Of a stretch of DNA of 43,663 nucleotides, positions 160 through 43,663 are shown piece after piece. The position numbers and the translations under genes are program-made. This DNA comes from a phage. How positions within the stretch are numbered: position 1 is the stretch's first letter; each line of letters starts with the position of its first letter. The notes under the pieces were generated by a model that saw nothing but the letters and a program-made list of their open reading frames with translations, did not search any database and had not been told where the DNA came from. The DNA lies in sequence record PZ445529.1, one strand, 5' to 3'.

Positions 160-207
160 GGCAACCAATGCGACCAGCTAAAAACACTCGAAATGGCAAC
201 CAATGCG
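160..207. repeat. two copies of 13-bp motif CGCATTGGTTGCC (reverse orientation) at 160-172 and 195-207; a third forward copy lies at 43540-43552
   Basis: Exact 13-mers read directly; they flank element copy A in inverted orientation, just 3' of the primase/helicase gene. Confidence 0.8.
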
Positions 208-215
208 CGCAACAT

Positions 216-2480
216 TTAATCTTTTAAATCATCATCGGTCGCAGAAAGCGTGATGGGTATACTCGTTTTAATGACAATATTCGACGACCCGTAGATGGCC
301 CCGGTGTGCGGATCGGTATAAAAACCGAGCACGCCGCGCTCGACCATATCGTCGATTGCCTTCGTCGATGTGCCACCTTTCGCAAGCCCAGCCTGGCGGA
401 CAATTGCCGATTTACTGAATCCGGTATGGTCCGGGTTATCTTCCATCAGTTTTTCCAGTGCCGCATAAAGCACTTTCTCTTTTTCGTTGCGCGGTCCGGC
501 GGCGTTTTCTTCCTTAACTGCGGCTTTGCCAGCGGCCTTCGCCTGTTCGATGGCGAACGGTGCCAGGGCGACCGGTACGAGGTAAAGAGTCTCGTCGCGT
601 GGCGTGGATGCGATCGGCTTGACGTCCCAACCGGCAACCACATCGCCGAAGTCTGGCCCGGCGCTGGTGGACTGGTGGGCTTCGAACGCTTCGGACTTGC
701 GGAGATCTACCTTAACTTTGCACTTAAGCAGGACGAATCCGCGCGGCGCTTGCTTGATGCCGTTACGCGCCTTTTCGTGATACAGGTTCAATTGTCCGGG
801 CTGGTTGTCGTCCGGTTGTTCCAGGAAGAACGCGGAATCGACAGCACCATGAAGCGCGCCGGACCCGCGAGGCGTTCTGCTGCCGTTTGCACCTTTAGCC
901 GGGTGGTGGATGACGCCCGCACTGCCGCCTGTATTTTCCGCAATGGCCTTCAGCGCCTTGACCACTTCGCCCATATCGCTGGCGTTGTTCTCGTCGAACG
1001 GTTTAGCATCGGCGGACCGCAGCGCAACAGTCTGGTTGAGTGAGTCGAACGCCACCAGGCCAACCGGTTCGCCGTTAGCGGTGCGGTTGATAAAGCTGAT
1101 AACTTCGCGCAAGCCCGACTTGCTGGTGATATCCCAGCCGCGTGATTGCAGGTCAATAATGTGCAGCTTGTCCAGGTCGTGCTCGTATTTGATCTGCAAT
1201 GCTTCCTTACGCTGGTTGGAGGCTTCGCCACCTTCCGCGTCGAAATAGAAGCAATGGGACTGGACGACCTTCGCACCGCCAAACGGGATACCCGCGGCAA
1301 CCGCACCCATCTGCCCCAGCACGTAGAACGATTTACCGATGTTCGACTCACCCGCCATGTACCAGGTCGATTTAAAGTTAATCAACCCCTCGATGATCGG
1401 GTCGTGCTTACTGAACAGCGCAACCGGCTCGTTATCCAGATCCGCATCGGTGCACACGCCGTATTCTTCGCCGTCGCCAACCGCATCAACAATATGTTCA
1501 TATAAGGATTCGACTTCCTCGTCGTCCAGCCCTGGGAGGATGGCGGCGATTTGCTTACGTGACATGTTGTGCGGCTCGACGTTCAGGTGGTCCGGTATCC
1601 CGATAAGACGTAGCGCCAGGTGCTGGTGTCTGTTCAGCTCAGAGCAACACTCGTTGCCGGTGTGCATACACTTGAAACGGATCTCGCCATCCTTGACCAT
1701 AATAGCCGTCGACCCTTCGCCGCTGTGCAGATGTTCGTTCGGGCACGGCACTTCATAACCGCGACCGGAGGATAACTCCTCGAATCCTGCTTGGAAGCAC
1801 CAGTCCAGAATGCCGTCAGCCACTGCGTCGTCGCCCTGGGTAAGCTCGCGGCGTACTTCCTCTTTCTCCACTCCCAGCCTGTCAGCCCGGCGAAGCAGAC
1901 GACGCACACTGGCGCGCTTTCCGTAGTGGCACTTAATGACAGACTGCTGGTGTGGTAGGTACATCAGGCGGTTTGTGTCTTTGGTGCAATCGTCGAAGTC
2001 CACATCAGACAGGCCCAGTTGGTCTAACAGCGCGTACTGGACGCGGCCCAGGTCTTCCGCCGGTACGGGCTTGTCTGTGAGCACAAGGAAACGTGCGCAA
2101 CGCGTGCCGCCTTTCAGCGGGTGGCGGTCGCCGGTTGTTGTATGGAATACGTGCTCCAGCCCCGCATCGATGAAAGCCTTACGGCAGCGGCGCAAGGTGC
2201 GAGTGTCGGTACGGTCGATATCAAAGAACAGGATCGAGCGGTCCACCGCGCTGGTCTTACGGCGTAGGCCGTCACTGGTATATGCCACGATGCCATCGGC
2301 CTTGCGCTTGCGGCGCGCATACTCGGCTTTATCCTCGGTCTTGTTGATATGCACTGATGATATTTCTTTCGCATCATTGATAAATTCGAAAAATTCATCA
2401 GTTGTCATCTGGAAGTTTTCCGCCCTGGCTTTTTCGCCTTTTTTAGCGGGTCTTGTTACAGCGAATTTAATTAAGCTCAT
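216..2480 (-). CDS. bifunctional DNA primase/helicase (primase-type N-terminal region with Cys/His zinc motif, RecA-like P-loop helicase C-terminal region)
   Basis: 754-aa ORF; zinc motif CPNEHLHSGEGS...KCMHTGNECC; Walker A GESNIGKS; VIHHPAKG motif typical of RepA/DnaB-like phage helicases; stop 11 nt after the upstream HTH gene. Confidence 0.8.
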   Translation of the reverse strand: MSLIKFAVTRPAKKGEKARAENFQMTTDEFFEFINDAKEISSVHINKTEDKAEYARRKRKADGIVAYTSDGLRRKTSAVDRSILFFDIDRTDTRTLRRCRKAFIDAGLEHVFHTTTGDRHPLKGGTRCARFLVLTDKPVPAEDLGRVQYALLDQLGLSDVDFDDCTKDTNRLMYLPHQQSVIKCHYGKRASVRRLLRRADRLGVEKEEVRRELTQGDDAVADGILDWCFQAGFEELSSGRGYEVPCPNEHLHSGEGSTAIMVKDGEIRFKCMHTGNECCSELNRHQHLALRLIGIPDHLNVEPHNMSRKQIAAILPGLDDEEVESLYEHIVDAVGDGEEYGVCTDADLDNEPVALFSKHDPIIEGLINFKSTWYMAGESNIGKSFYVLGQMGAVAAGIPFGGAKVVQSHCFYFDAEGGEASNQRKEALQIKYEHDLDKLHIIDLQSRGWDITSKSGLREVISFINRTANGEPVGLVAFDSLNQTVALRSADAKPFDENNASDMGEVVKALKAIAENTGGSAGVIHHPAKGANGSRTPRGSGALHGAVDSAFFLEQPDDNQPGQLNLYHEKARNGIKQAPRGFVLLKCKVKVDLRKSEAFEAHQSTSAGPDFGDVVAGWDVKPIASTPRDETLYLVPVALAPFAIEQAKAAGKAAVKEENAAGPRNEKEKVLYAALEKLMEDNPDHTGFSKSAIVRQAGLAKGGTSTKAIDDMVERGVLGFYTDPHTGAIYGSSNIVIKTSIPITLSATDDDLKD

Positions 2481-2490
2481 TGCCGTTGCC

Positions 2491-2820
2491 TTACTTCGAA
2501 GTTTTGTTATTGCGTACCCAAGAGCGCACGGTGCTTTGGTTAATTCCTGTCAACTCCGCGATCATTGCCCATGACTTCCCCTCATCGCGCAAACGGATAA
2601 CCTGTTTTTTGTATTCTTCCATTTCCTCATTGTGCTTTTGCAGCTTGCTTGCTGCCGTACCGTTGAGTAATTCCAGCTTCGCGCGCAATTCTTTTTCGGT
2701 AAGTCGCAGACGTTCGATCTCAAATAGCACCGCACCCACGGCATCGGTATATGCCCAGGACCGGCTTGTCTCACTGCAAACAGTCTTAGTTAACATTTCG
2801 ATTGCGTCGTCAATATTCAT
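2491..2820 (-). CDS. small helix-turn-helix DNA-binding protein (candidate transcriptional regulator)
   Basis: 109-aa ORF; C-terminal HTH-like segment GKSWAMIAELTGINQSTVRSWV; RBS GGAGA 8 nt upstream of ATG; first gene of the operon with the primase. Confidence 0.65.
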   Translation of the reverse strand: MNIDDAIEMLTKTVCSETSRSWAYTDAVGAVLFEIERLRLTEKELRAKLELLNGTAASKLQKHNEEMEEYKKQVIRLRDEGKSWAMIAELTGINQSTVRSWVRNNKTSK

Positions 2821-2834
2821 TTTTCTGTCTCCGG

Positions 2835-2849
2835 TTGGTTAATGACCAA
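2835..2849. promoter_or_regulatory. operator-like imperfect palindrome TTGGTtaatgACCAA over the predicted transcription start of the HTH gene
   Basis: Inverted TTGGT/ACCAA half-sites; same half-site as the recurring TTGGTTGCA motif. Confidence 0.4.
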
Positions 2850-2851
2850 CG

Positions 2852-2880
2852 AAACTACACCTAAAACCGCGGGGTGTCAA
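2852..2880 (-). promoter_or_regulatory. sigma70-like promoter for the HTH-primase operon (-35 TTGACA, 17-bp spacer, -10 TAGTTT with upstream TG)
   Basis: Reverse complement of 2875-2880 is TTGACA; -10 region is the reverse complement of 2852-2857. Confidence 0.45.
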
Positions 2881-2893
2881 CTCCTTTGGAATA

Positions 2894-2922
2894 TTGAAAC
2901 GGGCGCGCACGCGTGTAATAAT
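2894..2922 (+). promoter_or_regulatory. sigma70-like promoter P1 (-35 TTGAAA, 17-bp spacer, -10 AATAAT with TG), back-to-back with the HTH promoter
   Basis: Hexamers read directly; a terminator lies only about 30-60 nt downstream. Confidence 0.4.
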
Positions 2923-2950
2923 ACTCCCGTCTCATTGTCTCTTATTGGTT

Positions 2951-2985
2951 AGCGCCGTTGCATTTTGCCTCGGCGCTTTTTTTTT
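2951..2985 (+). terminator. Rho-independent terminator (stem agcgccg/cggcgct, 13-nt loop, run of 9 T)
   Basis: Perfect 7-bp GC-rich stem followed by TTTTTTTTT, between promoter P1 and the main early promoter. Confidence 0.6.
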
Positions 2986-2995
2986 AAATTAGTTG

Positions 2996-3025
2996 TTGAC
3001 ACCTATCCTGCAACCAATCTATTAT
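2996..3025 (+). promoter_or_regulatory. main early promoter (-35 TTGACA, 18-bp spacer, -10 TATTAT) with TGCAACCAAT motif in the spacer
   Basis: ttgacacctatcctgcaaccaatctattat; drives the plus-strand early block through a ~195-nt leader. Confidence 0.55.
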
Positions 3026-3221
3026 TCCCCCCGTCGACAGGATGCAGGACGCAAACTGGAGAGGGGCAACGCAGGGGCCGGATCGAAGTGTCAGGATTCC
3101 CAACCGTGATTATATAACCCGGTCCACTACCCGAACGGGAGAACGCGCAACCGGGCAATATGTTAAGGCCACCGACGAAGTTAACTGCCGACACCTAAAC
3201 TTAACCAATCGGAGATATACC

Positions 3222-3728
3222 ATGTTTGAGCAAATCGTAAACCTGATCACTCGCGGCGTAGTAGCACTGGAAACCATCGCAAAGCATTATGAAACTGTTG
3301 GCGCTGCCGTTGGTAAGCAGGAAGACAAGAAGCCGTCTAAGGCCAAAAAAGAAGATGACGACGATGCCGCCGAAGACGAAAAACCGGCTAAAGCTAAAAA
3401 AGCACCGGCGAAAGGTAAGGCCAAAAAAGAAGTCGTAGAAGATGACGACGAAGACGCCGAAGACGAAAAACCGGCTAAGGCTAAAAAAGCACCGGCGAAC
3501 GGCAAAGGTAAGAAAGATGCTGATCCGCTGGCGGAGATGCGCGACGAAATCAAACAGTATGCCGCGATTATCGCCGGTGGTGATGACGACGATGCGAACG
3601 ACGAATTCGACGACCTGCTGGAGTCGTTCGAGATCAAATCAATCGCCAAGCTGGAAGATGACGACGTCGAAGACTTCCACACAGAGTTAAAAGAAATCGT
3701 CGAAACCTATTTCGAACTGGAAGATTAA
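3222..3728 (+). CDS. highly acidic low-complexity protein with alternating D/E and K/A-rich stretches; first gene of the early operon
   Basis: ATG at 3222 with RBS GGAG; 168 aa; contains in-frame 87-bp tandem repeat; upstream part of ORF 3042-3728 judged 5' UTR. Confidence 0.65.
   Translation: MFEQIVNLITRGVVALETIAKHYETVGAAVGKQEDKKPSKAKKEDDDDAAEDEKPAKAKKAPAKGKAKKEVVEDDDEDAEDEKPAKAKKAPANGKGKKDADPLAEMRDEIKQYAAIIAGGDDDDANDEFDDLLESFEIKSIAKLEDDDVEDFHTELKEIVETYFELED
3351..3518. repeat. in-frame tandem repeat (87-bp unit, about 2 copies) encoding EDDD(D/E)A(A/E)DEKPAKAKKAPA(K/N)GK
   Basis: Near-identical units starting 3351 and 3438. Confidence 0.8.
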
Positions 3729-3736
3729 TATATTCC

Positions 3737-3763
3737 GGCCCGCTAATCTGCGGGCCTCTTTTT
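3737..3763 (+). terminator. Rho-independent terminator (ggcccgc-taatct-gcgggcc followed by tcttttt)
   Basis: Perfect 7-bp stem plus T-run 9 nt after the stop of the acidic-protein gene. Confidence 0.7.
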
Positions 3764-3776
3764 AGAGGACGAGACA

Positions 3777-4028
3777 ATGGCACGCTTCACGCTAATCGAG
3801 GCGGTGGACTCCCGCGACCAGCGCCCGTATTATTGGCTATTCGAACGCATCGGCAATTTTCAGTCACGCGTTGCCGTAATAGATAAACGCCGCAATACTC
3901 CCGCGCAAATTAAGCGCACCACCTTTATTAATCCCGACTTTTATATTTGGGCAGACTCCAATCTGGAATATGTTCGCTTTGCAGTTGCATCCGAAGCAAG
4001 AACGATTGACCGCTGGGAGACGAAATAA
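3777..4028 (+). CDS. hypothetical protein (83 aa)
   Basis: ORF with RBS GAGG 8 nt upstream; stop overlaps next start (TAATG). Confidence 0.55.
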   Translation: MARFTLIEAVDSRDQRPYYWLFERIGNFQSRVAVIDKRRNTPAQIKRTTFINPDFYIWADSNLEYVRFAVASEARTIDRWETK

Positions 4029-4207
4029 TGAAATTCTTCGTGCTGGCAACATGCCACGAATTAGACGATCACACTTCTTTTATTGTTGAAAACACCAACG
4101 CAAGCAATTGCTTTGTGGACGCGCAAAATGAAGTTAAGCGCCGAGTCGAAAAAGCGGGCCTGGCGAATGTGAAATATGTAATTGTCCAGTTTACACGGGT
4201 GGAATAA
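4028..4207 (+). CDS. hypothetical small protein (59 aa), below the ORF-track size cut-off
   Basis: Hand-translated MKFFVLATCHELDDHTSFIVEN...; start overlaps upstream stop and stop overlaps downstream start (TAATG both ends). Confidence 0.45.
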   Translation: MKFFVLATCHELDDHTSFIVENTNASNCFVDAQNEVKRRVEKAGLANVKYVIVQFTRVE

Positions 4208-5637
4208 TGGCGATTAAACCAAAACGTAAAACGCAATCCGGTAGCAATACGGAACACTCATTACTCGGCCCGTCCGGTGCTAAAAAATGGATGGGTTGCC
4301 CTGCCGCCCTGGTGGTGGAAAAAGATATCCCGAACGAATCCGGGCAGGCGGCGATTAACGGTACGAGTATGCACACCGTATCTGAAGTCGTGCTAAACCG
4401 CATTATCGCCGGTGAAAAGCGGATAACAGCAAAGACGTATAAAGGATGTTACGTCGAGAATGAAGGCAAGGGGCCAGTAAAGGCGCACCCGAAAGCGCCG
4501 AAAGGCGGCGTACTGGTCAATGACGACATGGTGAAACAGTGCGATGCATACATCGACCACTGGCGCCCGCTCCTCGAAGTGGCGGAGTTTGTTCAGCTTG
4601 AGATGCGCGCCGATCTGACCCGCGTCCTTCATTCAGGCTTCGAGATCGACGGCAACAGGATTAAAACGTTCGGCACTGCCGATATGGTCATGGTCATGAA
4701 GAAGACCGACGGCACGTACATGCTGATTGTTGGCGACCTGAAGACGGGGCGGCATAAGGTCGAGGCGAAAGAAAACAAACAGCTTATGTTGTACGCGCTC
4801 GGCCTGCTGCGCAAGCTGCAATACATGTACGACATTACGACCGTGCGTCTGGTTATCTTCCAGCCATATTGTGGCGGGGCGTCGGAGTGGGATATTACAG
4901 TGGAAGCGCTGGAGATATTCGCGAAGTTTGCGTCCAAGCGTGCAATCGCCGCCCTGGAAGCGTACACCCGCGGCAAGAAGGGACTAACCCGCGCCGACTT
5001 CCGACCCAGCGTTGATGCGTGCCAGTGGTGCCGATTTGCGGACCAATGTAGTGCCCGGGCGAAGGCCGCAATCGACACGATGACACCACCAACGGCAACC
5101 GACGAAGACCTGGGCGACGACGTGAGTATCGCTACAGAGGAGGAATGCGCCAACCACGATCGCAATATGGCCCGCGAAGCCCGGAAGGCGGCACGACGTG
5201 CGAAGCGAGGCAAGAAAGAAGCGGCCCCCGGCGCTATGAGCGCGGCTGAACTGCGCAAGGCTTATGAAGGTCTGGACGCAATGCGCCAGCACATCAAAGC
5301 AATCGAGTCCGCGGTATTTAAGGCTGTGATGGCGGGTGATGGCGAATCGCTTGGCCTCAAGATGGTTGCCGGTAAGGAAGGGATCCGCAAGTGGGCGGAC
5401 GAGAGCGAAGTGATTGAAATCTTCACGAAGGCCCGGATCAAGCGCGATGTGATGTACAAAGAAACATTGCTCAGCCCTACTGATGCCGAGAAGGTACTGA
5501 AGGACGAGAAACCGAAAGTATGGGCGAAGCTGTGTGATAAAATCACGCGCGCACCGGCAAAACCGGTATTAGCACCAATCGACGATCCGCGCCCTGCGTG
5601 GTCGGAAGCTACTGACGAGGACTTAAGCAATGAATAA
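4207..5637 (+). CDS. PD-(D/E)xK exonuclease of the Cas4/RecB-like phage type (DUF2800-like)
   Basis: 476 aa; nuclease-core motifs GTADMVMV...IVGDLKTGRH; C-terminal Cys cluster CQWCRFADQC typical of Cas4-type nucleases; sits beside a putative SSB. Confidence 0.7.
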   Translation: MAIKPKRKTQSGSNTEHSLLGPSGAKKWMGCPAALVVEKDIPNESGQAAINGTSMHTVSEVVLNRIIAGEKRITAKTYKGCYVENEGKGPVKAHPKAPKGGVLVNDDMVKQCDAYIDHWRPLLEVAEFVQLEMRADLTRVLHSGFEIDGNRIKTFGTADMVMVMKKTDGTYMLIVGDLKTGRHKVEAKENKQLMLYALGLLRKLQYMYDITTVRLVIFQPYCGGASEWDITVEALEIFAKFASKRAIAALEAYTRGKKGLTRADFRPSVDACQWCRFADQCSARAKAAIDTMTPPTATDEDLGDDVSIATEEECANHDRNMAREARKAARRAKRGKKEAAPGAMSAAELRKAYEGLDAMRQHIKAIESAVFKAVMAGDGESLGLKMVAGKEGIRKWADESEVIEIFTKARIKRDVMYKETLLSPTDAEKVLKDEKPKVWAKLCDKITRAPAKPVLAPIDDPRPAWSEATDEDLSNE

Positions 5638-5961: not shown

Positions 5962-6690
5962 ATGGCTAAAGTCAACCTGAAAAATGTGCGCGTATGCTTC
6001 CTGAAAATTTGGGAACGTGACACCCCTAAACAGGATGGACAAAAACCGGCATACCGTGCCGTGATTCTTCTGGATAAAGAAGATCCGCAGGTGGACAAAG
6101 TGGAAGCGGCAGCGCGCGCAGTGCTCACCGACAAGCTGAAATCCGAGAAGAATGCCGATAAGTGGATGGACCGCCACTACGCCCAGGATTCGAAGGAATG
6201 CGCAGTTCGTGACGGTGACGAGCGCGACGAAGTATCCGAAGAATTCGAAGGCATGTTGTACATCAACGCTAAATCGTTCAAACAGCCAAACATTCAAACG
6301 TCACTCGGCGAGAAGCAGACCGAACAGGGTCTGACCGTAGAAGGCGACGAGATCGAAGGCCAGGAGATCTACTCCGGTTGTTATTGCAACGTGTCCCTTG
6401 ATATCTGGGCGTGGAACAACACCAACGGCAAGGGACTCGGTGCTGGCTTGCTGGGTTTACGCTTCCGTGATGACGGTGAAGCCTTCGGCGGTGGCGGGTC
6501 TTCTTGCTCCGATGAAGACCTGGACAACGACGACGAAGACGAAGCACCGCGCAAGTCCAAGAAATCCAAGCGCCGCGATGACGACGATGAGGAAGATGAA
6601 AAACCTCGCAAACGCCGCAAGTCCCGCGATGACGAAGATGAGGACGAAGACGACGAAGACGAAGCACCACGCAAACGTCGCCGCCGTTAA
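5962..6690 (+). CDS. putative single-stranded DNA-binding protein (DUF2815-like) with acidic/basic repeat tail
   Basis: N-terminus MAKVNLKNVRVCF... characteristic of the phage SSB family paired with Cas4-like exonucleases; start chosen at ATG 5962 (RBS GAGG); C-terminal DE/KR tail. Confidence 0.6.
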   Translation: MAKVNLKNVRVCFLKIWERDTPKQDGQKPAYRAVILLDKEDPQVDKVEAAARAVLTDKLKSEKNADKWMDRHYAQDSKECAVRDGDERDEVSEEFEGMLYINAKSFKQPNIQTSLGEKQTEQGLTVEGDEIEGQEIYSGCYCNVSLDIWAWNNTNGKGLGAGLLGLRFRDDGEAFGGGGSSCSDEDLDNDDEDEAPRKSKKSKRRDDDDEEDEKPRKRRKSRDDEDEDEDDEDEAPRKRRRR

Positions 6691-12402: not shown

Positions 12403-12722
12403 ACACTACATTCGAAGCCATCGATTTTTCGGTTGCAATGACTAACCAGTTATTCTCCTACGACAGCAAAACCGGCGTCATTCGTCTGAAGTCCACCGGC
12501 TGCAAAATTGGCAACATCAATACTGCCGATGGAGGCACCCGTATCGAATGCAATGGTAAGACGCTGTCGGGCGCGCGCGTGGCGTGGATTATTGAGACGG
12601 GCAATACAATCCCCCCGGGCTTCGCCGTAGTGTGTCGCCAGCGCACACCAGGGCACTACGGCAACCGAATCAGCAATCTGTATCTGGTAGACGTTGCACG
12701 CGATCCGAATTTTTATTCGTAA
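12399..12722 (+). CDS. HNH-type homing-endonuclease-like protein (NUMOD4-like + HNH-like region, possibly degenerate)
   Basis: 107 aa; YDSKTGVIRLKSTGCKIGN...ECNGK and GHYGNRISNLYLV resemble phage HNH endonuclease motifs; RBS GAGGA. Confidence 0.5.
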   Translation: MNTTFEAIDFSVAMTNQLFSYDSKTGVIRLKSTGCKIGNINTADGGTRIECNGKTLSGARVAWIIETGNTIPPGFAVVCRQRTPGHYGNRISNLYLVDVARDPNFYS

Positions 12723-12727
12723 ATTGG

Positions 12728-12756
12728 TTGCATAACCATATTGGTTGCATTATATT
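12728..12756 (+). promoter_or_regulatory. sigma70-like promoter (-35 TTGCAT, 17-bp spacer, -10 TATATT) built on two direct ATTGGTTGCAT copies
   Basis: aaattggttgcataaccatattggttgcattatatt; contains TGGTT-gcat-AACCA inverted repeat. Confidence 0.5.
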
Positions 12757-12758
12757 GA

Positions 12759-12783
12759 GGGTGTCCGGTTGGACGCCCTTTTT
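12759..12783 (+). terminator. leader hairpin/attenuator (gggtgtcc-ggtt-ggacgccc + TTTTT) between promoter and gene start
   Basis: 7 of 8 bp stem followed by T-run, lying after the promoter and before the ATG at 12803. Confidence 0.45.
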
Positions 12784-12802
12784 AATAACTGGAGACAGTG
12801 CG

Positions 12803-13054
12803 ATGAAATCATTATTTTTCGACTACGACGGCGACCTTCGATTTTGGGTGCTCCTCACCCTCATGATTGCCGTTTGTGTTTGCGTACCTGCCGCGGGTGT
12901 CGCGGGTGTCTACTACTCGGAACGCTACGAATGCCGGACTGTGTACGCAGAGCAAACAGGTCGCAACACCCAATGGCGCTATGGTGTCTGCTGGGTAGAG
13001 ATGGACGGCAAATTTATTCCACGCGATGAAATCCGCACTACGGAGACTAAATAG
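12803..13054 (+). CDS. small membrane protein (83 aa)
   Basis: ATG 12803 with RBS GGAGA; hydrophobic helix FWVLLTLMIAVCVCVPAAGVAGV. Confidence 0.5.
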   Translation: MKSLFFDYDGDLRFWVLLTLMIAVCVCVPAAGVAGVYYSERYECRTVYAEQTGRNTQWRYGVCWVEMDGKFIPRDEIRTTETK

Positions 13055-14187: not shown

Positions 14188-14654
14188 AATTACTGATTTG
14201 CGATTTGGATGGCGTTATTAATGGTTCAAGCGATGCGCGTGCCGACCTGGTGCCGGGGATAAAAACGAAATCAACCTTTTGGGCAAAGTGGCACAAAGCG
14301 CATGTACGCGAAGACCTGAACATGGATATGCTGCCGCTGTTGCGCATGTACAAAGAGCAAGGCTTCGAGATCGCGTATCTGACCAACCGGCAGCTAGAAT
14401 GCTGGGAGACTACCGCCGAGCAACTGGAGGTATTCCCGGCAGGCCGGTTGTTTATGCGCCACATGCTGGACGACACCCCGCCGCCAGAGTTTAAGGCGTG
14501 CGCTGTGTTCAAAATGGTCTGCTATGCAGACGTGTCTGAACTTGTCATCATTGAGGACTGCGAGAAGAACATCGCGGCAATTCGTCGGGCGTGCGGCGAT
14601 TTGGTCCCGAAAATTTACGCAATAAACGTTGCAAAATTCACTTGCAACCAATAG
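14184..14654 (+). CDS. HAD-superfamily hydrolase (nucleotidase/phosphatase-like)
   Basis: 156 aa; motif I LICDLDGVI (DxDG). Confidence 0.55.
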   Translation: MKLLICDLDGVINGSSDARADLVPGIKTKSTFWAKWHKAHVREDLNMDMLPLLRMYKEQGFEIAYLTNRQLECWETTAEQLEVFPAGRLFMRHMLDDTPPPEFKACAVFKMVCYADVSELVIIEDCEKNIAAIRRACGDLVPKIYAINVAKFTCNQ

Positions 14655-14660
14655 GTTGGT
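14632..14660 (+). promoter_or_regulatory. promoter-like element with perfect palindrome TGCAACCAA-tagg-TTGGTTGCA
   Basis: cttgcaaccaataggttggttgcattatag; -35 TTGCAA, 17-bp spacer, -10-like TTATAG. Confidence 0.45.
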
Positions 14661-14717
14661 TGCATTATAGTTAACGCGTCGGGGGGCAATACGGCCTCCC
14701 ATAAAAAGGACCACATA

Positions 14718-15820: not shown

Positions 15821-17389
15821 TTATTTACCTTCCAGCTTTTCCACTTTCCGCAACAGGTGAACGAAGGCGGCACACAGATCCATCAACAGCACGTTACTAT
15901 CTAGTGACAGCACATCGTCCGTATACCCGATTTCCTTTCGGTCGACTACAACTTCGTTGCCTTCCTCGTCCACCCCCTTGATATCCTCATAAATGGCATA
16001 ACCCGGCAGCAAGTGCACATATTCTGGGTCAATCCTTGCCAGATCCTGTGCGATAAGGCCGTATCGCTGTACGTCAGACTCCTTATACTTGAACATTGCC
16101 GGAAGCCATTGACGAACGCGGTTGTAGCTTTCCTCGCCGTCAGTGTATTGGATTTCTTTTTTAAGGTCGCGGTCCGATAGCGCCGCTTTCTGGAACTCGT
16201 TAACCGAAGGGTTGCTGCTGTTACCACTAATCAGCCTGCCGTCCGGTAGGAAGCGGAATAAAGCCTCCGCATAACCATCCTTCCACACGTGGACACGGTA
16301 GTCCGATAAGTGGGCATCGCCGCCCCTGACCAAGCCAGATCGTGTCCAATCCGTGTACCACTTATGCATCGTCTGCCCGACCCAGCTATCCATCCCGAAA
16401 GACGCGTTTGATATAATCAAACCGTTTCTTTCGACATCATTGAAGGTTAGCGATTCGCCTCCGTTCAGACGTAATGTTGCGTGTTTAACGATACTATCAT
16501 CACCAACGCCAAGATTAGCGCGTGCCGCCGATTTATCTGCGACGTCTGCCAGGTTCTGCGACTTCTTCATGAATTGCGTAGGGTCGATCGCGTTTTTGAA
16601 GTCTTCGGCTTCGTCCCGATACCCCTGCGCGGCATCGCGGGCGGCTTGCGCGTCCCTCTTCGCTGTATTGGCCTGATCTCGAATAACGCCGGTGTCAGTC
16701 TTGATCTGGTTCGTCTGCGTCTTGATGGCCTGCGTATCCGTCTTGATCTGGTTCGTCTGCGTCTTGATGGCCTGCGTATCCGTCTTGATCTGGTTCGTCT
16801 GCGTCTTGATGGCCTGCGTATCAGTTTTGATCTGGTTCGTCTGCGTCTTGATGGTATTGGTGGCGTCGCGAATACCCGCCGTCTCGGTCTTGAAGCCTTC
16901 TGCCTCATTGCGAAATCCTTGCGCGGCTGCTTCCGATGCGGCGGCTTGTTGTTGCAGGTCGCGCATTTCCACTGGGTCGATCTGTTTCATCAACTGCGAC
17001 AGATAGCCCCATGACATACCCTGCATGACTTGCCCGTTCGGCAGCGTTACGGTGATTTCTTCAGCGTCGCCGAAGATTGCACGCCAGTTGTTTTCATCGG
17101 CGATCATCAAACGAAATGCTTTCTGTGCCTGGACGGTAACGCCCATCGTAGTCAATGACATGGTGTCACGTTTGATGCCGTCCCAGGCTAGGCCGGTTGC
17201 CGTCGGGCCGTCGAACGGCAGCACCAGCGTAAGCGCCGTGTTACTTTTGATTGATGCGATCGCCACGGTGTAAGGAACTTGCCCTACCACCAGCGTTAAG
17301 AAGTCGCCAGCTTTAAACGCGGTAAACGTTGTGCCGACCCCTACTACCGCCTTGCTATTGTTCGTTACGGATAGCGTACCCGCTGCCAT
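15821..17389 (-). CDS. tail fibre with coiled repeat region and C-terminal intramolecular chaperone (peptidase S74-like) domain
   Basis: C-terminal SDRDLKKEI...YGLIAQDL...LLMDLCAAFVHLLRKVEKLEGK resembles autoproteolytic chaperone domains; start set at ATG 17389 (RBS GAGGA) rather than 17416. Confidence 0.65.
   Translation of the reverse strand: MAAGTLSVTNNSKAVVGVGTTFTAFKAGDFLTLVVGQVPYTVAIASIKSNTALTLVLPFDGPTATGLAWDGIKRDTMSLTTMGVTVQAQKAFRLMIADENNWRAIFGDAEEITVTLPNGQVMQGMSWGYLSQLMKQIDPVEMRDLQQQAAASEAAAQGFRNEAEGFKTETAGIRDATNTIKTQTNQIKTDTQAIKTQTNQIKTDTQAIKTQTNQIKTDTQAIKTQTNQIKTDTGVIRDQANTAKRDAQAARDAAQGYRDEAEDFKNAIDPTQFMKKSQNLADVADKSAARANLGVGDDSIVKHATLRLNGGESLTFNDVERNGLIISNASFGMDSWVGQTMHKWYTDWTRSGLVRGGDAHLSDYRVHVWKDGYAEALFRFLPDGRLISGNSSNPSVNEFQKAALSDRDLKKEIQYTDGEESYNRVRQWLPAMFKYKESDVQRYGLIAQDLARIDPEYVHLLPGYAIYEDIKGVDEEGNEVVVDRKEIGYTDDVLSLDSNVLLMDLCAAFVHLLRKVEKLEGK
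16698..16865. repeat. in-frame 42-bp tandem repeat (about 4 copies, 21-bp sub-period) encoding TDTQAIKTQTNQIK heptad repeats
   Basis: Unit gtcttgatctggttcgtctgcgtcttgatggcctgcgtatcc repeated head-to-tail. Confidence 0.85.
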
Positions 17390-17410
17390 AGCTAAATCCT
17401 CGTAAATTGG

Positions 17411-17439
17411 TTGCAATCCAGGTTGAGCGGTGTAATACT
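17411..17439 (+). promoter_or_regulatory. promoter-like element with ATTGGTTGCAA motif (-35 TTGCAA, -10-like TAATAC) upstream of the lipoprotein gene
   Basis: cgtaaattggttgcaatccaggttgagcggtgtaatact. Confidence 0.4.
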
Positions 17440-27551: not shown

Positions 27552-27618
27552 TATGCAGTCCCCTTTTTATGCAGTTGCCGATTGTCATTGTATCAGCGAT
27601 TTTAAAACAATCCTTATT

Positions 27619-27787
27619 CAGTCTCAGACGAGGGGGGCCACTGACCCCCGTCTAGTCTGAAAGACTGGGGTGCTGTCCCGCTGTCCCGATCGGCTAAACC
27701 CCGCGGCAGCACTGGTGGGGACGGGGTGCTGTCCCGCTTTGTCCCGCCCCTTGTTTGTCCCGCTTTTTGTCCCGCTTAGTTTATGCA
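27619..27787. repeat. copy B of the 169-bp element (palindrome + GTCCCG iterons), in the gap between the GT chaperone stop and the tape measure start
   Basis: Exact match to 43616-43663 + 1-121; followed at 27826-27857 by extra inverted GGGACA/GTCCCG copies (gggacaaaacgggacgtcccgatctgtcccgc). Confidence 0.9.
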
Positions 27788-27856
27788 ATAAATTCGAATA
27801 GGTATGCACATTTCAGGGGTGGGACAAAACGGGACGTCCCGATCTGTCCCGCTGCA

Positions 27857-33387: not shown

Positions 33388-33416
33388 TTGCAATCCTCAT
33401 ATTGGTTGCATATATT
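33388..33416 (+). promoter_or_regulatory. sigma70-like promoter (-35 TTGCAA, 17-bp spacer, -10 TATATT) with two ATTGGTTGCA copies
   Basis: cttgcaatcctcatattggttgcatatattggttgcacaccaaca; the 21-mer tatattggttgcacaccaaca recurs on the minus strand at 43413-43433. Confidence 0.55.
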
Positions 33417-33445
33417 GGTTGCACACCAACAACGAGGACACACTA

Positions 33446-40658: not shown

Positions 40659-40688
40659 AGTATGGCGTCTATGTTGGTTGCAAGTCAA
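40659..40688 (-). promoter_or_regulatory. sigma70-like promoter (-35 TTGACT, 18-bp spacer, -10 CATACT) with TGCAACCAA motif at the -35
   Basis: Reverse complement of 40659-40688; sits just after the terminator that follows the Ig-like gene. Confidence 0.4.
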
Positions 40689-42818: not shown

Positions 42819-43084
42819 TTGCTCAGTCTCCAGTGTTTGCCTACCCGCTCAACGGCGGGCTTCCGGCGTAATGTAATACGGATCCCCATTGGTTGCAAGG
42901 AGGTCCGCACCCTGAAATCGTGTTGTGCTGCGAACTGGTGCAAGTAGCGAGTCTGCGTCAACGGCTTTACGTCGTCGCGATAGCACCAGAATACAGATTC
43001 ACCCTCAACCGCATTCTCAGCCCATATTCGTATGCAATGCAGGGGAATATGCCACGAAAGCTGTTTGGCGCGCCTACGGCTCAT
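42815..43084 (-). CDS. hypothetical basic protein (89 aa)
   Basis: ORF 10 nt after upstream stop. Confidence 0.45.
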   Translation of the reverse strand: MSRRRAKQLSWHIPLHCIRIWAENAVEGESVFWCYRDDVKPLTQTRYLHQFAAQHDFRVRTSLQPMGIRITLRRKPAVERVGKHWRLSK

Positions 43085-43399: not shown

Positions 43400-43427
43400 T
43401 GTTCAGTCCTCATGTTGGTGTGCAACC

Positions 43428-43456
43428 AATATAGCAAGGTGCCAGGCCGGATGCAA
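43428..43456 (-). promoter_or_regulatory. sigma70-like promoter (-35 TTGCAT, 17-bp spacer, -10 TATATT) with two ATTGGTTGCA copies
   Basis: Reverse complement gives ttgcat-ccggcctggcaccttgc-tatatt; shares an identical 21-mer with the promoter at 33388-33416. Confidence 0.55.
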
Positions 43457-43539
43457 CCAATATTAATCACGCGCATGAAAAAGTTGATCGCTATCTGCTG
43501 AGACTGCAAACCGCATTTTTCACTCAACATAATACAACC

Positions 43540-43552
43540 CGCATTGGTTGCC
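43540..43552. repeat. forward copy of CGCATTGGTTGCC motif
   Basis: Exact match to the reverse complement of 160-172 and 195-207. Confidence 0.8.
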
Positions 43553-43615
43553 TAGTTCCGCGACGACCGCAATCCGCAACATGCTGCCGTGTATTTTGCA
43601 ATCCAGGATTTTATG

Positions 43616-43663
43616 CAGTCTCAGACGAGGGGGGCCACTGACCCCCGTCTAGTCTGAAAGACT
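43616..43663. repeat. 5' part of copy A of the 169-bp element (imperfect GC-rich palindrome cagtctcagacgaggggggccactgacccccgtctagtctgaaagact)
   Basis: 43616-43663 is identical to 27619-27666; window end joins window start seamlessly as in copy B. Confidence 0.9.

What the first reader, a model, noticed from the sequence alone, without database searches (positions are those of the whole stretch)
2852..3025. Divergent control region with back-to-back promoters and a possible ~55-nt terminated transcript
A minus-strand promoter (TTGACA-17-TAGTTT) for the HTH-primase operon, an operator-like palindrome over its start site, a plus-strand promoter P1 (TTGAAA-17-AATAAT) only 14 bp away, then a strong terminator (7-bp GC stem + 9 T) about 30-60 nt downstream, then the main early promoter. 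P1 plus the terminator would give a very short transcript (candidate small RNA or attenuator) that itself contains a TTATTGGTTAG motif variant.
Basis: seen in the sequence. Interest (0 to 1): 0.45.

Follow-up and report, generated by a model that had tools for sequence, protein, structure and literature searches.

The report
Phage early switch encoding small RNA
This is the early control region of a Dhillonvirus coliphage: three conserved host-type promoters, one of which should make a 57-base terminated RNA complementary to the ribosome-binding sites of the neighbouring early genes, so it is probably a small regulatory RNA, though no expression data exist.

Summary
The window is a Dhillonvirus (HK578/EP23-like). 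The P1–RNA–terminator module occurs in all 155 phage records that carry the neighbouring HTH gene.

In 19 distinct relatives the hexamers of all three promoters are nearly invariant while their flanks vary. Invariance starts exactly at the predicted P1 start, G2929: 22 of 23 positions are invariant, after 0 of 6 just upstream. The terminator hairpin keeps 100% pairing, with two doubly compensated pairs.

The RNA (2929-2985) has an unpaired 5' part and no competing antiterminator fold, so a small RNA fits better than an attenuator. A 16-nt unit, TRTCTC-N3-TTGGTTA, occurs three times in 43.6 kb, all here. Two copies lie over the Shine-Dalgarno sites of the two divergent first genes and one lies in the RNA. 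Their orientations make the RNA antisense to both start regions. My best reading is a trans-acting anti-RBS RNA. DNA operators are the main rival. No transcript data exist.

In passing: the main promoter drives a 160-nt structured leader RNA (3033-3192). It has no Rfam match, is shared by several phage genera, and shows strong covariation.

The parts
2491..2820 (-). First gene of the leftward operon: a 109-aa HTH protein, followed by the primase/helicase gene (216-2480).
   Evidence: ORFs. Pfam HTH_23 and Sigma70_r4_2 for the 109-aa protein, AAA_25 for the 754-aa protein. phrog_9366. Relatives annotate the 754-aa protein as helicase-primase.
2826..2841 (+). Copy 1 of the 16-nt unit TRTCTC-N3-TTGGTTA. 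On the minus-strand mRNA it reads UAACCAACCGGAGACA, which is the Shine-Dalgarno region of the HTH gene.
   Evidence: 3 copies in the window against 0.03 expected. Duplex with the P1 RNA is -21.7 kcal/mol.
2834..2850 (.). Palindrome GTTGGT-N5-ACCAAC over the predicted start of the leftward promoter; a candidate DNA operator.
   Evidence: Read. The same TTGGT-N5-ACCAA arrangement occurs at 33415 and 43415 (3 found against 1.3 expected, not significant alone). It is absent in HK578 and CHD5UKE2, which carry a different HTH gene.
2852..2880 (-). Leftward sigma-70 promoter: -35 TTGACA (complement of 2875-2880), 17 nt, -10 TAGTTT (complement of 2852-2857).
   Evidence: The -35 is invariant in 19 relatives, and the -10 is TAGTAT in HK578 and CHD5UKE2, while the spacer and flanks vary. 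The HK578 GenBank record annotates a promoter here.
2894..2922 (+). Promoter P1: TTGAAA, 17 nt, TGt-AATAAT (extended -10). The spacer is a GC-rich alternating purine-pyrimidine tract.
   Evidence: 10/12 plus TG. The -10 is invariant at 6/6 and the -35 at 5/6. The HK578 record annotates it.
2929..2985 (+). Predicted 57-nt non-coding P1 RNA: an unpaired 5' part (2929-2950) followed by the terminator hairpin and U tail.
   Evidence: Invariance begins at G2929: 22/23 invariant, against 0/6 for 2923-2928. Folds. No ATG or GTG start inside. No Rfam family reaches threshold; best hit E = 0.67 at 25.8 bits against a gathering score of 72.
2936..2951 (+). Copy 2 of the 16-nt unit, in the sense strand of the P1 RNA (UGUCUCUUAUUGGUUA): the proposed anti-RBS seed.
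2951..2985 (+). Intrinsic terminator: 7-bp stem with an inner 3-bp helix, then U9.
   Evidence: 100% of cells paired in 19 sequences, two pairs changed on both sides (G-C to U-A, G-C to C-G), 0/500 shuffles reach the score. The WF5505 record annotates a terminator here.
2977..2995 (.). T9 plus AAATTAGTTG: an invariant A/T block at the UP-element position of the main promoter, so the T tract may serve two purposes.
   Evidence: 2986-2995 is invariant at 10/10. The UP-element reading is inference from position.
2996..3025 (+). Main rightward early promoter: TTGACA, 18 nt, TATTAT.
   Evidence: 11/12. Conserved with small variants (TTGACT-17-TAATAT) in relatives.
3009..3018 (-). ATTGGTTGCA motif in the spacer of the main promoter, ending 1 nt before the -10; a candidate operator.
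   Evidence: Invariant at 10/10 while the rest of the spacer is invariant at only 2/7. The motif is enriched genome-wide: 15 found against 2.3 expected.
3033..3192 (+). Structured 160-nt leader RNA starting within a few nt of the main promoter's transcription start. It lies outside the finding but is part of the same control region.
   Evidence: No Rfam hit.
3202..3217 (-). Copy 3 of the 16-nt unit. On the plus-strand mRNA it reads UAACCAAUCGGAGAUA, the Shine-Dalgarno region of the first rightward gene.
   Evidence: Duplex with the P1 RNA is -19.0 kcal/mol.
3222..3728 (+). First rightward gene: a 168-aa acidic, repeat-containing protein of unknown function, followed by a strong terminator at 3737-3763.
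   Evidence: phrog_3127, unknown function.

Best explanation
The region is the early divergent control region of a virulent Dhillonvirus, read by host sigma-70 RNA polymerase from three promoters. P-left (minus strand) expresses the HTH protein and the primase/helicase. The main rightward promoter expresses a structured leader and the early and replication genes. P1, back-to-back with P-left, transcribes a discrete 57-nt non-coding RNA (2929-2985) that ends at its own intrinsic terminator. The unpaired 5' part of this RNA (GUCUCAUUGUCUCUUAUUGGUUA) is antisense to the ribosome-binding regions of the first gene of each divergent operon, and more weakly to the next early genes. I propose that it pairs with these mRNAs in trans, covers the Shine-Dalgarno site and start codon, and so lowers or times their translation, or triggers their decay. 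Shown here: the sequence elements, their conservation, the hairpin covariation and the complementarity. Inferred: that P1 fires, that the RNA accumulates, that pairing occurs, and the sign of the effect. My sub-confidences are about 0.65 for a discrete selected RNA and about 0.35 for the anti-RBS mechanism.
For: Elements and scores. The module is present in 155 of 155 phage records that carry the HTH gene. In 19 distinct sequences the P1 -10 is invariant at 6/6 and the -35 at 5/6. The discriminator 2923-2928 is invariant at 0/6, yet 2929-2951 is invariant at 22/23, so conservation starts at the predicted +1. Terminator: 100% pairing, 2 doubly compensated pairs, 0/500 shuffles. The hairpin forms with probability 0.98 and the 5' 22 nt are 86% unpaired. 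The 16-nt unit TRTCTC-N3-TTGGTTA occurs exactly 3 times in 43.6 kb against 0.03 expected, and all three copies have the orientation an RNA-RNA model requires. Duplex energies are -21.7 and -19.0 kcal/mol, about the 0.3 and 1.2 percentile of genome-wide windows. In 17 of 19 relatives both duplexes stay between -18 and -24; WF5505 has 17 contiguous pairs. Phages with a non-homologous HTH gene 5' end (HK578, CHD5UKE2) lack copy 1. Their start-codon region ACAAUGAGCAC is instead complementary to the 5' end of the RNA. In annotated phage bob, the four genes nearest the control region rank in the top 7 of 59 start regions. This grouping is post hoc, hypergeometric p about 1e-4. None of 500 shuffled seeds matches both flanking sites as well.
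Against: There are no transcript data for any Dhillonvirus. The duplex energies are good but not unique. The best non-self hits in the genome (-25.5) lie in a GCGGGACA repeat element, and bob_44 ties with the HTH gene. The seed is U-rich, so G-U pairs inflate scores, and early genes share a GGAGAC-type Shine-Dalgarno site that any anti-SD sequence would match. In the most divergent clade (LM40P1, L015) the seed lost one U and the targets changed without compensation. Energies there fall to between -14 and -17. TTGGTT is also the core of a DNA motif found at many promoters, so the three copies could be protein-binding sites. The T tract also sits where an UP element of the main promoter would be.
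Confidence: 0.4

Rival explanations
1. DNA-operator model. The invariant block 2929-2951 and the two copies over the start regions are binding sites on double-stranded DNA for a phage regulator, for example the divergently encoded HTH protein. This regulator would also recognise the TTGGT-N5-ACCAA palindrome and the ATTGGTTGCA sites. It would block all three transcription units just downstream of their starts. The P1 transcript would be a by-product, and the terminator would merely keep P1 polymerases off the main promoter.
For: ATTGGTTR is enriched (15 against 2.3). It lies next to -10 or -35 hexamers at many intergenic sites and in the spacer of the main promoter, where it is invariant at 10/10. 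The palindrome at 2834-2850 has two look-alikes and disappears together with the HTH gene type in HK578 and CHD5UKE2. Copies 1 and 2 lie at about +5 to +22 of their promoters.
Against: Copy 3 keeps its position relative to the Shine-Dalgarno site, not the promoter. Its distance from the main start differs by about 150 bp between phages with and without the leader. Invariance of the RNA region covers 16 nt beyond the TTGGTTA core and starts exactly at +1. All three orientations fit the RNA model, a 1 in 4 chance under an orientation-free model. HK578-type phages replace copy 1 with a different complementarity to the same RNA.
Confidence: 0.2
2. Tandem promoter with an attenuator. P1 is an upstream second promoter for the rightward early operon, and the terminator is a regulated stop that a host or phage factor overrides at some stage.
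For: P1, the terminator and the main promoter are co-linear on the same strand. A second promoter-then-hairpin arrangement exists at 12700-12790.
Against: There is no alternative antiterminator structure, and the hairpin forms with probability 0.98. A near-consensus promoter lies 10 bp behind the terminator, so read-through would add little. The invariant 23-nt 5' segment has no role in this model.
Confidence: 0.1
3. Replication-origin model. The P1 transcript primes or activates DNA replication through an R-loop or transcriptional activation next to the primase/helicase operon. GTCTC-N3-GTCTC would act as iterons and the T9/A-rich block as an unwinding element.
For: The location lies between the replication-gene operons. 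GC skew changes sign near 3000. An A/T-rich block at 2977-2995 lies downstream of the promoter. The analogy with promoter-plus-unwinding-element origins of T4 and T7 comes from my own knowledge.
Against: The skew change coincides with the switch of coding strand, so it is uninformative. There are only two short direct repeats. An efficient terminator hairpin kept by compensatory changes is not expected for a primer that must stay annealed.
Confidence: 0.06
4. No function. The promoter-like and terminator-like sequences are chance matches in an A/T-rich spacer.
For: Sigma-70-like hits are not enriched genome-wide (3 against 3.6 expected; 5 against 2.3 in 2.5 kb).
Against: The hexamers and the transcribed block are invariant amid variable flanks in 19 sequences and 155 records. 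The stem shows compensatory changes.
Confidence: 0.04

Closest known systems
Phage antisense RNAs that block a ribosome-binding site: P22 sar RNA and P1/P7 c4 RNA (my own knowledge)
   Same: These are short (about 70 nt), promoter-to-terminator phage RNAs. Their unpaired segment pairs with the Shine-Dalgarno and start region of a phage regulatory gene (ant, icd-ant) and shuts off its translation.
   Different: sar is cis-antisense, transcribed from the opposite strand of its target. c4 is processed from the same operon as its target. Here the RNA is a separate gene, acts in trans on two divergent operons, and belongs to a strictly virulent phage. No sequence or Rfam relationship was found.
DicF (53-nt sRNA of the Qin prophage) and other prophage-encoded Hfq-type sRNAs (my own knowledge)
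   Same: Size, architecture (5' seed, GC hairpin, U tail), phage origin, and inhibition by pairing over a start region.
   Different: DicF is processed from a longer transcript and targets host mRNAs such as ftsZ. Host targets, Hfq binding and processing were not testable here.
Lambda 6S RNA and StxS: short transcripts from pR' ending at tR' (my own knowledge)
   Same: A constitutive promoter is followed within tens of nucleotides by a strong intrinsic terminator. In Stx phages the short RNA is itself a regulatory sRNA.
   Different: There the terminator is overridden by the Q antiterminator to express the late genes. Here an independent strong promoter follows the terminator, and no Q-like logic is evident.
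Lambda oop RNA (my own knowledge)
   Same: A 77-nt phage RNA with its own promoter and intrinsic terminator, acting by base pairing on an early regulator mRNA.
   Different: oop is cis-antisense to the 3' end of cII and acts through RNase III cleavage, not by occluding a ribosome-binding site.
Back-to-back divergent early promoters such as lambda PRM/PR (my own knowledge)
   Same: Two divergent starts lie about 83 bp apart (2846 and 2929), one of them leading to a regulator gene.
   Different: There are no operators between the promoters, since that stretch is the least conserved part. The candidate operators lie downstream of the starts or in the main promoter's spacer.
HK022 put RNAs (for the leader element only; my own knowledge)
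   Same: A structured RNA encoded immediately downstream of early promoters, acting independently of the identity of the downstream genes.
   Different: put is about 70 nt with two stem-loops, while this element is about 160 nt with at least 7 helices. No terminators were seen downstream in two other phages. Relatives without the leader keep the same downstream terminator. The resemblance is one of position only.

Membership tests
Sigma-70 promoter (P1, main, leftward) | -35 and -10 hexamers close to TTGACA and TATAAT with a 16-18-nt spacer. | tested here: met
   P1 scores 10/12 plus TG and the main promoter 11/12. The leftward promoter has a 6/6 -35 but a 3/6 -10.
Sigma-70 promoter (P1, main, leftward) | Hexamers under selection relative to their flanks. 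| tested here: met
   the hexamers are invariant or nearly so in 19 sequences, while discriminators and spacers vary.
Sigma-70 promoter (P1, main, leftward) | Transcription initiates there in vivo or in vitro. | not testable with these tools
   No transcript data were found.
Intrinsic (Rho-independent) terminator | GC-rich hairpin directly followed by a U tract. | tested here: met
   7-bp stem plus U9, -16.4 kcal/mol, z = -3.2.
Intrinsic (Rho-independent) terminator | Hairpin maintained by compensatory substitutions. | tested here: met
   2 pairs changed on both sides and 1 A-U changed to G-U, with 100% of cells paired. All these changes come from one clade.
Trans-acting base-pairing sRNA (Hfq-type architecture) | Own promoter and own terminator, no ORF, length 50-300 nt. 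| tested here: met
   No ATG or GTG lies within 2929-2985.
Trans-acting base-pairing sRNA (Hfq-type architecture) | Conserved unpaired seed. | tested here: met
   22/23 positions invariant. Mean unpaired probability 0.86.
Trans-acting base-pairing sRNA (Hfq-type architecture) | Complementarity to target start regions beyond chance. | tested here: met
   0/500 shuffled seeds match both targets, and the four nearest genes rank in the top 7 of 59.
Trans-acting base-pairing sRNA (Hfq-type architecture) | Seed-target covariation. | tested here: inconclusive
   The seed is invariant except in one clade, where pairing weakens rather than being compensated. HK578-type phages show a different complementarity.
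Trans-acting base-pairing sRNA (Hfq-type architecture) | RNA accumulates, binds Hfq or ProQ, and regulates targets. | not testable with these tools
   Needs Northern blots, RIL-seq and reporter assays.
Transcription attenuator | Mutually exclusive terminator and antiterminator folds, or a leader peptide. | tested here: not met
   There is only one stable fold and the terminator forms with probability 0.98. No leader ORF.
Any Rfam 15 family (P1 RNA) | Score at or above the family's gathering threshold. | tested here: not met
   Best hits are STnc480 on the opposite strand (25.8 bits against 72) and RsaE (21.2 against 79).
Any Rfam 15 family (leader RNA 3033-3192) | Any match with E up to 10. 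| tested here: not met
   Zero matches. No tRNA or tmRNA.

The most novel reading that the evidence does not exclude
A strictly virulent siphophage encodes, between its two divergent early operons, a dedicated 57-nt trans-acting RNA. Its anti-Shine-Dalgarno seed would damp translation of the first genes of both operons, and possibly of further phage or host mRNAs with GAGAC-type sites. This would be an RNA-based early timing or dosage circuit fixed across the whole genus. It sits beside a second, unclassified structured leader RNA that is shared by several phage genera.
Probability: 0.3. Interest if true: 0.65.

Novelty: new member of a known kind. Interest (0 to 1): 0.55.

Why it matters
Regulatory RNAs of virulent phages are barely charted. 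Most known phage sRNAs come from temperate phages and prophages. A genus-wide, invariant small RNA aimed at the ribosome-binding sites of both early operons would give a simple, testable model of RNA-based early gene control. Dhillonviruses are in common laboratory use, for example in the BASEL collection and as SECphi phages.

It also matters for annotation. Some records place 'hypothetical protein' CDSs over the small-RNA region or the leader.

The neighbouring leader RNA occurs in about 170 phage records from several genera. It has strong covariation and no Rfam family, so it is a ready candidate for a new RNA class.

Tried and rejected
1. Rfam scans of 2000-4500 and 3020-3225 gave only sub-threshold, terminator-driven hits for the small RNA and nothing for the leader.
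2. The metagenome scan with a 15-specified-base pattern for the leader was swamped by chance matches.
3. The genome-contig scan found one phage-like contig only, so the leader is not a bacterial or prophage element.
4. RNAalifold on the plain MAFFT alignment of the leader mis-registered the variable stems. I replaced it with a hand-anchored gapless alignment.
5. Ranking sRNA targets by duplex energy genome-wide did not single out the two flanking start regions. Restricting to annotated start regions and using shuffled seeds was more informative.
6. A put-like antitermination role for the leader gained no support. No terminators lie downstream in slyngel or IME279, and leader-less relatives keep the same downstream terminator.
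7. The leader is not a gene-specific riboswitch, because the downstream genes are unrelated between phage groups.
8. The region is not coding. The ORFs 3042-3728 and 2965-3117 are not supported: the leader is an indel among close relatives, and the annotated start at 3222 has a strong Shine-Dalgarno site.
9. Literature searches for Dhillonvirus transcription or for the exact sequences found nothing relevant.
Full report
WHAT THE WINDOW IS. The window is a complete or nearly complete genome of a Dhillonvirus, an HK578/EP23/SO-1-like virulent siphophage of E. coli. The stretch 2400-3700 matches 196 phage records, most at 90-95% identity. To the left of the finding, on the minus strand, lie a 109-aa HTH protein (2491-2820; Pfam HTH_23 and Sigma70_r4_2; phrog_9366) and a 754-aa primase/helicase (216-2480). 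To the right, on the plus strand, lie a 168-aa acidic protein of unknown function (3222-3728), two small ORFs, an exonuclease, a Gp2.5-like ssDNA-binding protein and a DNA polymerase. The finding therefore sits in the intergenic space between the two divergent early and replication operons.

OBSERVATION CHECK. Every element is present.
- Leftward promoter: -35 TTGACA is the complement of 2875-2880 and -10 TAGTTT is the complement of 2852-2857, with a 17-nt spacer.
- Palindrome GTTGGT-N5-ACCAAC: 2834-2850.
- P1: TTGAAA 2894-2899, 17 nt, AATAAT 2917-2922, preceded by TG (10/12).
- Terminator: stem 2951-2957 with 2971-2977, an inner 3-bp helix, and nine T at 2977-2985. The fold is -16.4 kcal/mol, z = -3.2.
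- Main promoter: TTGACA 2996-3001, 18 nt, TATTAT 3020-3025 (11/12).
- The -35 hexamers of the leftward promoter and P1 are 13 bp apart.

Only three sigma-70 sites scoring at least 10/12 exist in the whole 43.6-kb window, and two of them are P1 and the main promoter. The genome-wide count is not above expectation, so consensus matches alone prove little.

CONSERVATION. I collected the region from 14 IMG/VR contigs and from phages bob, HK578, CHD5UKE2, WF5505 and LM40P1. This gave 19 distinct sequences. The P1-RNA-terminator module is present in 155 phage records, the same number that carry the HTH gene.

Per-element conservation:
- P1 -10: 6/6 invariant. P1 -35: 5/6. P1 spacer: 13/17.
- The six bases after the -10 (2923-2928): 0/6 invariant, and they vary in length.
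- 2929-2951: 22/23 invariant.

Conservation therefore starts at the base where transcription is predicted to start. That pattern is expected if the transcribed RNA is the selected object.

The leftward -35 is invariant. Its -10 is TAGTTT, or TAGTAT in HK578 and CHD5UKE2. This holds even though those two phages have an unrelated sequence downstream and a different HTH gene (47% identity, C-terminal part only).

The terminator keeps 100% pairing in all 19 sequences. In the LM40P1/L015 clade, two stem pairs are changed on both sides (G-C to U-A, G-C to C-G) and an inner A-U becomes G-U. None of 500 column shuffles reaches the observed score. These changes come from one lineage, so they count as few events.

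The GenBank record of HK578 already annotates three consensus promoters at these places. The WF5505 record annotates the terminator. No record annotates an RNA gene.

THE RNA. The predicted transcript 2929-2985 is 57 nt. Its first 22 nt are unpaired (mean probability 0.86) and the hairpin forms with probability 0.98. No competing antiterminator fold exists, and there is no ATG or GTG start codon and no leader peptide. No Rfam family comes near its threshold. With a near-consensus promoter 10 bp behind the terminator, read-through would serve little purpose. I therefore prefer 'small RNA' to 'attenuator'.

COMPLEMENTARITY TO THE NEIGHBOURING START REGIONS. This unit occurs exactly three times in the window against 0.03 expected, and all three copies lie within this 400-bp region.
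- Copy 1 (2826-2841, + strand) lies over the Shine-Dalgarno site of the minus-strand HTH gene.
- Copy 3 (3202-3217, - strand) lies over the Shine-Dalgarno site of the plus-strand gene at 3222.
- Copy 2 (2936-2951, + strand) lies in the P1 RNA.

With these orientations both mRNAs carry UAACCAA-N3-GAGAYA and the RNA carries the complement.

RNAduplex gives -21.7 and -19.0 kcal/mol. The genome-wide mean is -10.6 and the first percentile is -19.5. Each phage's own RNA against its own two start regions stays between -18 and -24 in 17 of 19 genomes. WF5505 has 17 contiguous pairs.

HK578 and CHD5UKE2 have a different HTH gene and lack copy 1. Their start-codon region ACAAUGAGCAC is instead complementary to the very 5' end of the RNA, GUCUCAUUGU.

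In the fully annotated relative bob, I scored the seed against all 59 annotated start regions. The HTH gene ties for first place. The four genes nearest the control region (bob_50 to bob_53) are all in the top seven; this grouping is post hoc, hypergeometric p about 1e-4. None of 500 shuffled seeds matches both flanking sites as well as the real seed.

Counter-points:
- The strongest non-self duplexes in the genome lie in an unrelated GCGGGACA repeat.
- The U-rich seed profits from G-U pairs.
- Early genes share a GGAGAC-type Shine-Dalgarno site.
- In the LM40P1 clade, seed and targets changed without compensation, and energies fall to between -14 and -17.

DNA MOTIFS. ATTGGTTR is enriched: 15 sites against 2.3 expected. 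The full form, ATTGGTTGCA, sits in intergenic regions, often in pairs. It lies directly upstream of a -10-like hexamer or supplies a TTGCA(A/T) -35. One copy, in reverse orientation, fills the spacer of the main promoter and ends 1 nt before the -10. It is invariant at 10/10, while the rest of the spacer is invariant at 2/7. This is most simply an operator through which a phage factor controls the main early promoter.

The palindrome at 2834-2850 has the same TTGGT half-site, with two look-alikes at 33415 and 43415. These DNA sites are the basis of the main rival reading, in which the three 16-nt copies are operators rather than RNA pairing partners. Three points argue against that rival:
- Copy 3 keeps its distance to the Shine-Dalgarno site, not to the promoter. 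Its distance from the promoter differs by about 150 bp among relatives.
- The conserved block extends well beyond TTGGTTA.
- HK578-type phages show a different complementarity to the same RNA.

THE MAIN PROMOTER'S TRANSCRIPT: A STRUCTURED LEADER (outside the given coordinates). Between the main promoter and the ATG at 3222 lie 190 nt. About 150 of them (3042-3191) are missing in some Dhillonviruses: L003, L006, L009, L015, WF5505, CHD5UKE2 and LM40P1.

The same element occurs in other genera at 80-94% identity in its core. These include Drexlerviridae (slyngel, swan01, JK16, KMI8, PHB17, Motto), Sortsnevirus (IME279, Lumpael), HeidiAbel/BUCT618, Serratia MQ-4 and Klebsiella KA2-1. It is found in about 170 phage records in all. 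It always lies in an intergenic gap, in the orientation of the flanking genes. A -10-like hexamer always ends 30-35 nt before the invariant GGAGAGG block, so the element begins within a few nucleotides of a transcription start. The downstream genes are unrelated between phage groups.

Invariant single-stranded blocks alternate with helices that differ in sequence but stay paired:
- P7 has 10 sequence variants, with 49/50 cells paired.
- P6 has 6 variants, including G-C to A-U and A-U to U-A changes.
- P8 has 4 variants.
- P9 has 4 variants, mostly with GNRA loops.
- P3 has A-U or G-C at one position.
- P1 has at least 7 variants.

On a gapless alignment of 24 distinct sequences, 98.5% of cells pair, against 33-47% when partners are slid. 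Fifteen of 31 pairs change on both sides. The covariation score is 0.403 against 0.125 in shuffles (0/500). Caveat: I anchored that alignment by hand on the invariant blocks and chose the register of one strand of P7 by best complementarity, which favours P7.

There is no Rfam match at E up to 10, no tRNA or tmRNA, and no literature hit. Its function is unknown. A promoter-proximal role independent of gene identity is suggested, such as transcript stability, action on the polymerase, or a processed stand-alone RNA. A put-like antitermination role gained no support.

MECHANISM PROPOSED. On infection, host polymerase fires all three promoters. P1 yields an abundant 57-nt RNA. Its seed pairs with the Shine-Dalgarno and start regions of the HTH mRNA and of the first rightward mRNA, and more weakly with the next early genes. 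This limits or delays their translation. A DNA-binding factor acting at ATTGGTTGCA and the palindrome later adjusts the main and leftward promoters. Sequence, conservation, structure and complementarity are shown. Expression, pairing and the direction of the effect are inferred.

COMPARISON AND NOVELTY. In working principle the RNA resembles P22 sar, P1 c4, DicF and the short pR' transcripts of lambdoid phages (my own knowledge). It is not a sequence relative of any Rfam family. It differs in being a separate trans-acting gene aimed at two divergent operons of a virulent phage. The promoters and the terminator are already annotated piecemeal in two GenBank records. The RNA gene, its seed and its targets are not, and no paper in the searched library deals with them. 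I rate it a new member of a known kind. The leader RNA may be a new class.

LIMITS. All evidence is comparative and thermodynamic. The genus is closely knit (84-99% identity here), so independent evolutionary events are few. The target statistics include a post hoc grouping.

Noticed in passing
window 3033-3192 (+); also L020 1929-2170, L021 1948-2174, L022 1903-2172, L023 1460-1721, L024 1426-1664, L026 1429-1670: A structured RNA element of about 160 nt starts within a few nt of the main early promoter's start site. It is shared by Dhillonvirus, several Drexlerviridae, Sortsnevirus and other enterobacterial siphophages (about 170 records). It is always 30-35 nt behind a -10 hexamer and precedes unrelated genes. 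98.5% of cells pair and 15 of 31 pairs show double changes. There is no Rfam hit. Some Dhillonviruses lack it. It is a candidate new RNA class of unknown function.
   Followed up: yes
window 162-204, 3009-3018, 12723-12749, 14643-14664, 17406-17415, 33401-33423, 40674-40682, 42888-42897, 43421-43461, 43543-43552: The 10-nt motif ATTGGTTGCA is enriched (ATTGGTTR: 15 sites against 2.3 expected). It lies in intergenic regions, often in pairs 13-35 bp apart. It sits directly upstream of a -10-like hexamer or provides a TTGCA -35. It is probably the site of a phage transcription factor. TTGGTTGCAA also sits at the -35 of the leader promoter in an unrelated phage group (L041, L046, L054).
   Followed up: partly
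window 27614-27808 and 43611-43663 joined to 1-142: A repeat of about 195 nt is present twice (93-98% identity). One copy spans the window's ends, so the window is circularly joined or terminally continuous. On the minus strand it carries six GCGGGACA units followed by a GC hairpin (AGACGGGGG...CCCCCCTCGTCT). It also gives the strongest non-self duplex with the P1 RNA seed (-25.5 kcal/mol), probably through G-U pairing.
   Followed up: partly
window 12700-12805 and 14640-14690: Two ATTGGTTGCA copies and a TATATT -10 are followed at once by a strong hairpin (GGGTGTCC/GGACGCCC) plus T5, then the RBS and ATG at 12804. This is a second 'promoter then terminator' arrangement. A 28-nt look-alike (79% identity) lies at 14656-14683.
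   Followed up: no
window 3737-3763 (+): A strong intrinsic terminator (7 G-C pairs plus a T run) lies directly after the first rightward gene and before the exonuclease, SSB and polymerase genes. No strong promoter follows it. Early rightward expression therefore needs read-through or is deliberately stepped down (the WF5505 record annotates the same terminator).
   Followed up: no
window 2903-2916: The P1 spacer contains a 14-nt perfectly alternating purine-pyrimidine tract (GCGCGCACGCGTGT, including the palindrome CACGCGTG). All variants in relatives keep the alternation (GCGCGCGCGCGTGT, GTGCGCGCGCGTGT, GCGCGCACACGTGT). This could be a Z-DNA-prone, supercoil-sensitive element between divergent promoters, or simply a bias towards transitions.
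   Followed up: no
window 3195-3224: The start region of the first rightward gene (ACUUAACCAAUCGGAGAUAUACCAUG) shares GGAGAUAUAC with the phage T7 gene 10 ribosome-binding site. It also has a UUAAC element like that site's upstream enhancer (comparison from my own memory). It is probably a very strong translation start.
   Followed up: no
L171 1291-1449 and 1499-2182 (phage JohannBuxtorf_Bas84); several 'hypothetical protein' features under the match: Some relatives annotate CDSs over the small-RNA region (53 aa), or extend the first rightward gene upstream through the leader RNA (228 aa, equivalent to window ORF 3042-3728). Given the indel and the covariation, these CDS calls are probably spurious.
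   Followed up: partly
window 3350-3517 and 6511-6674: The acidic first rightward protein contains an 87-nt tandem duplication (89% identity) encoding DDDxAEDEKPAKAKKAPA repeats. Similar acidic/basic repeat DNA recurs at the C-terminus of the Gp2.5-like SSB gene.
   Followed up: no
window 16650-16896: A 21/42-nt periodic repeat array (7 copies of a 79-nt register) lies inside a long minus-strand ORF (15821-17416), probably a repetitive structural or fibre protein.
   Followed up: no
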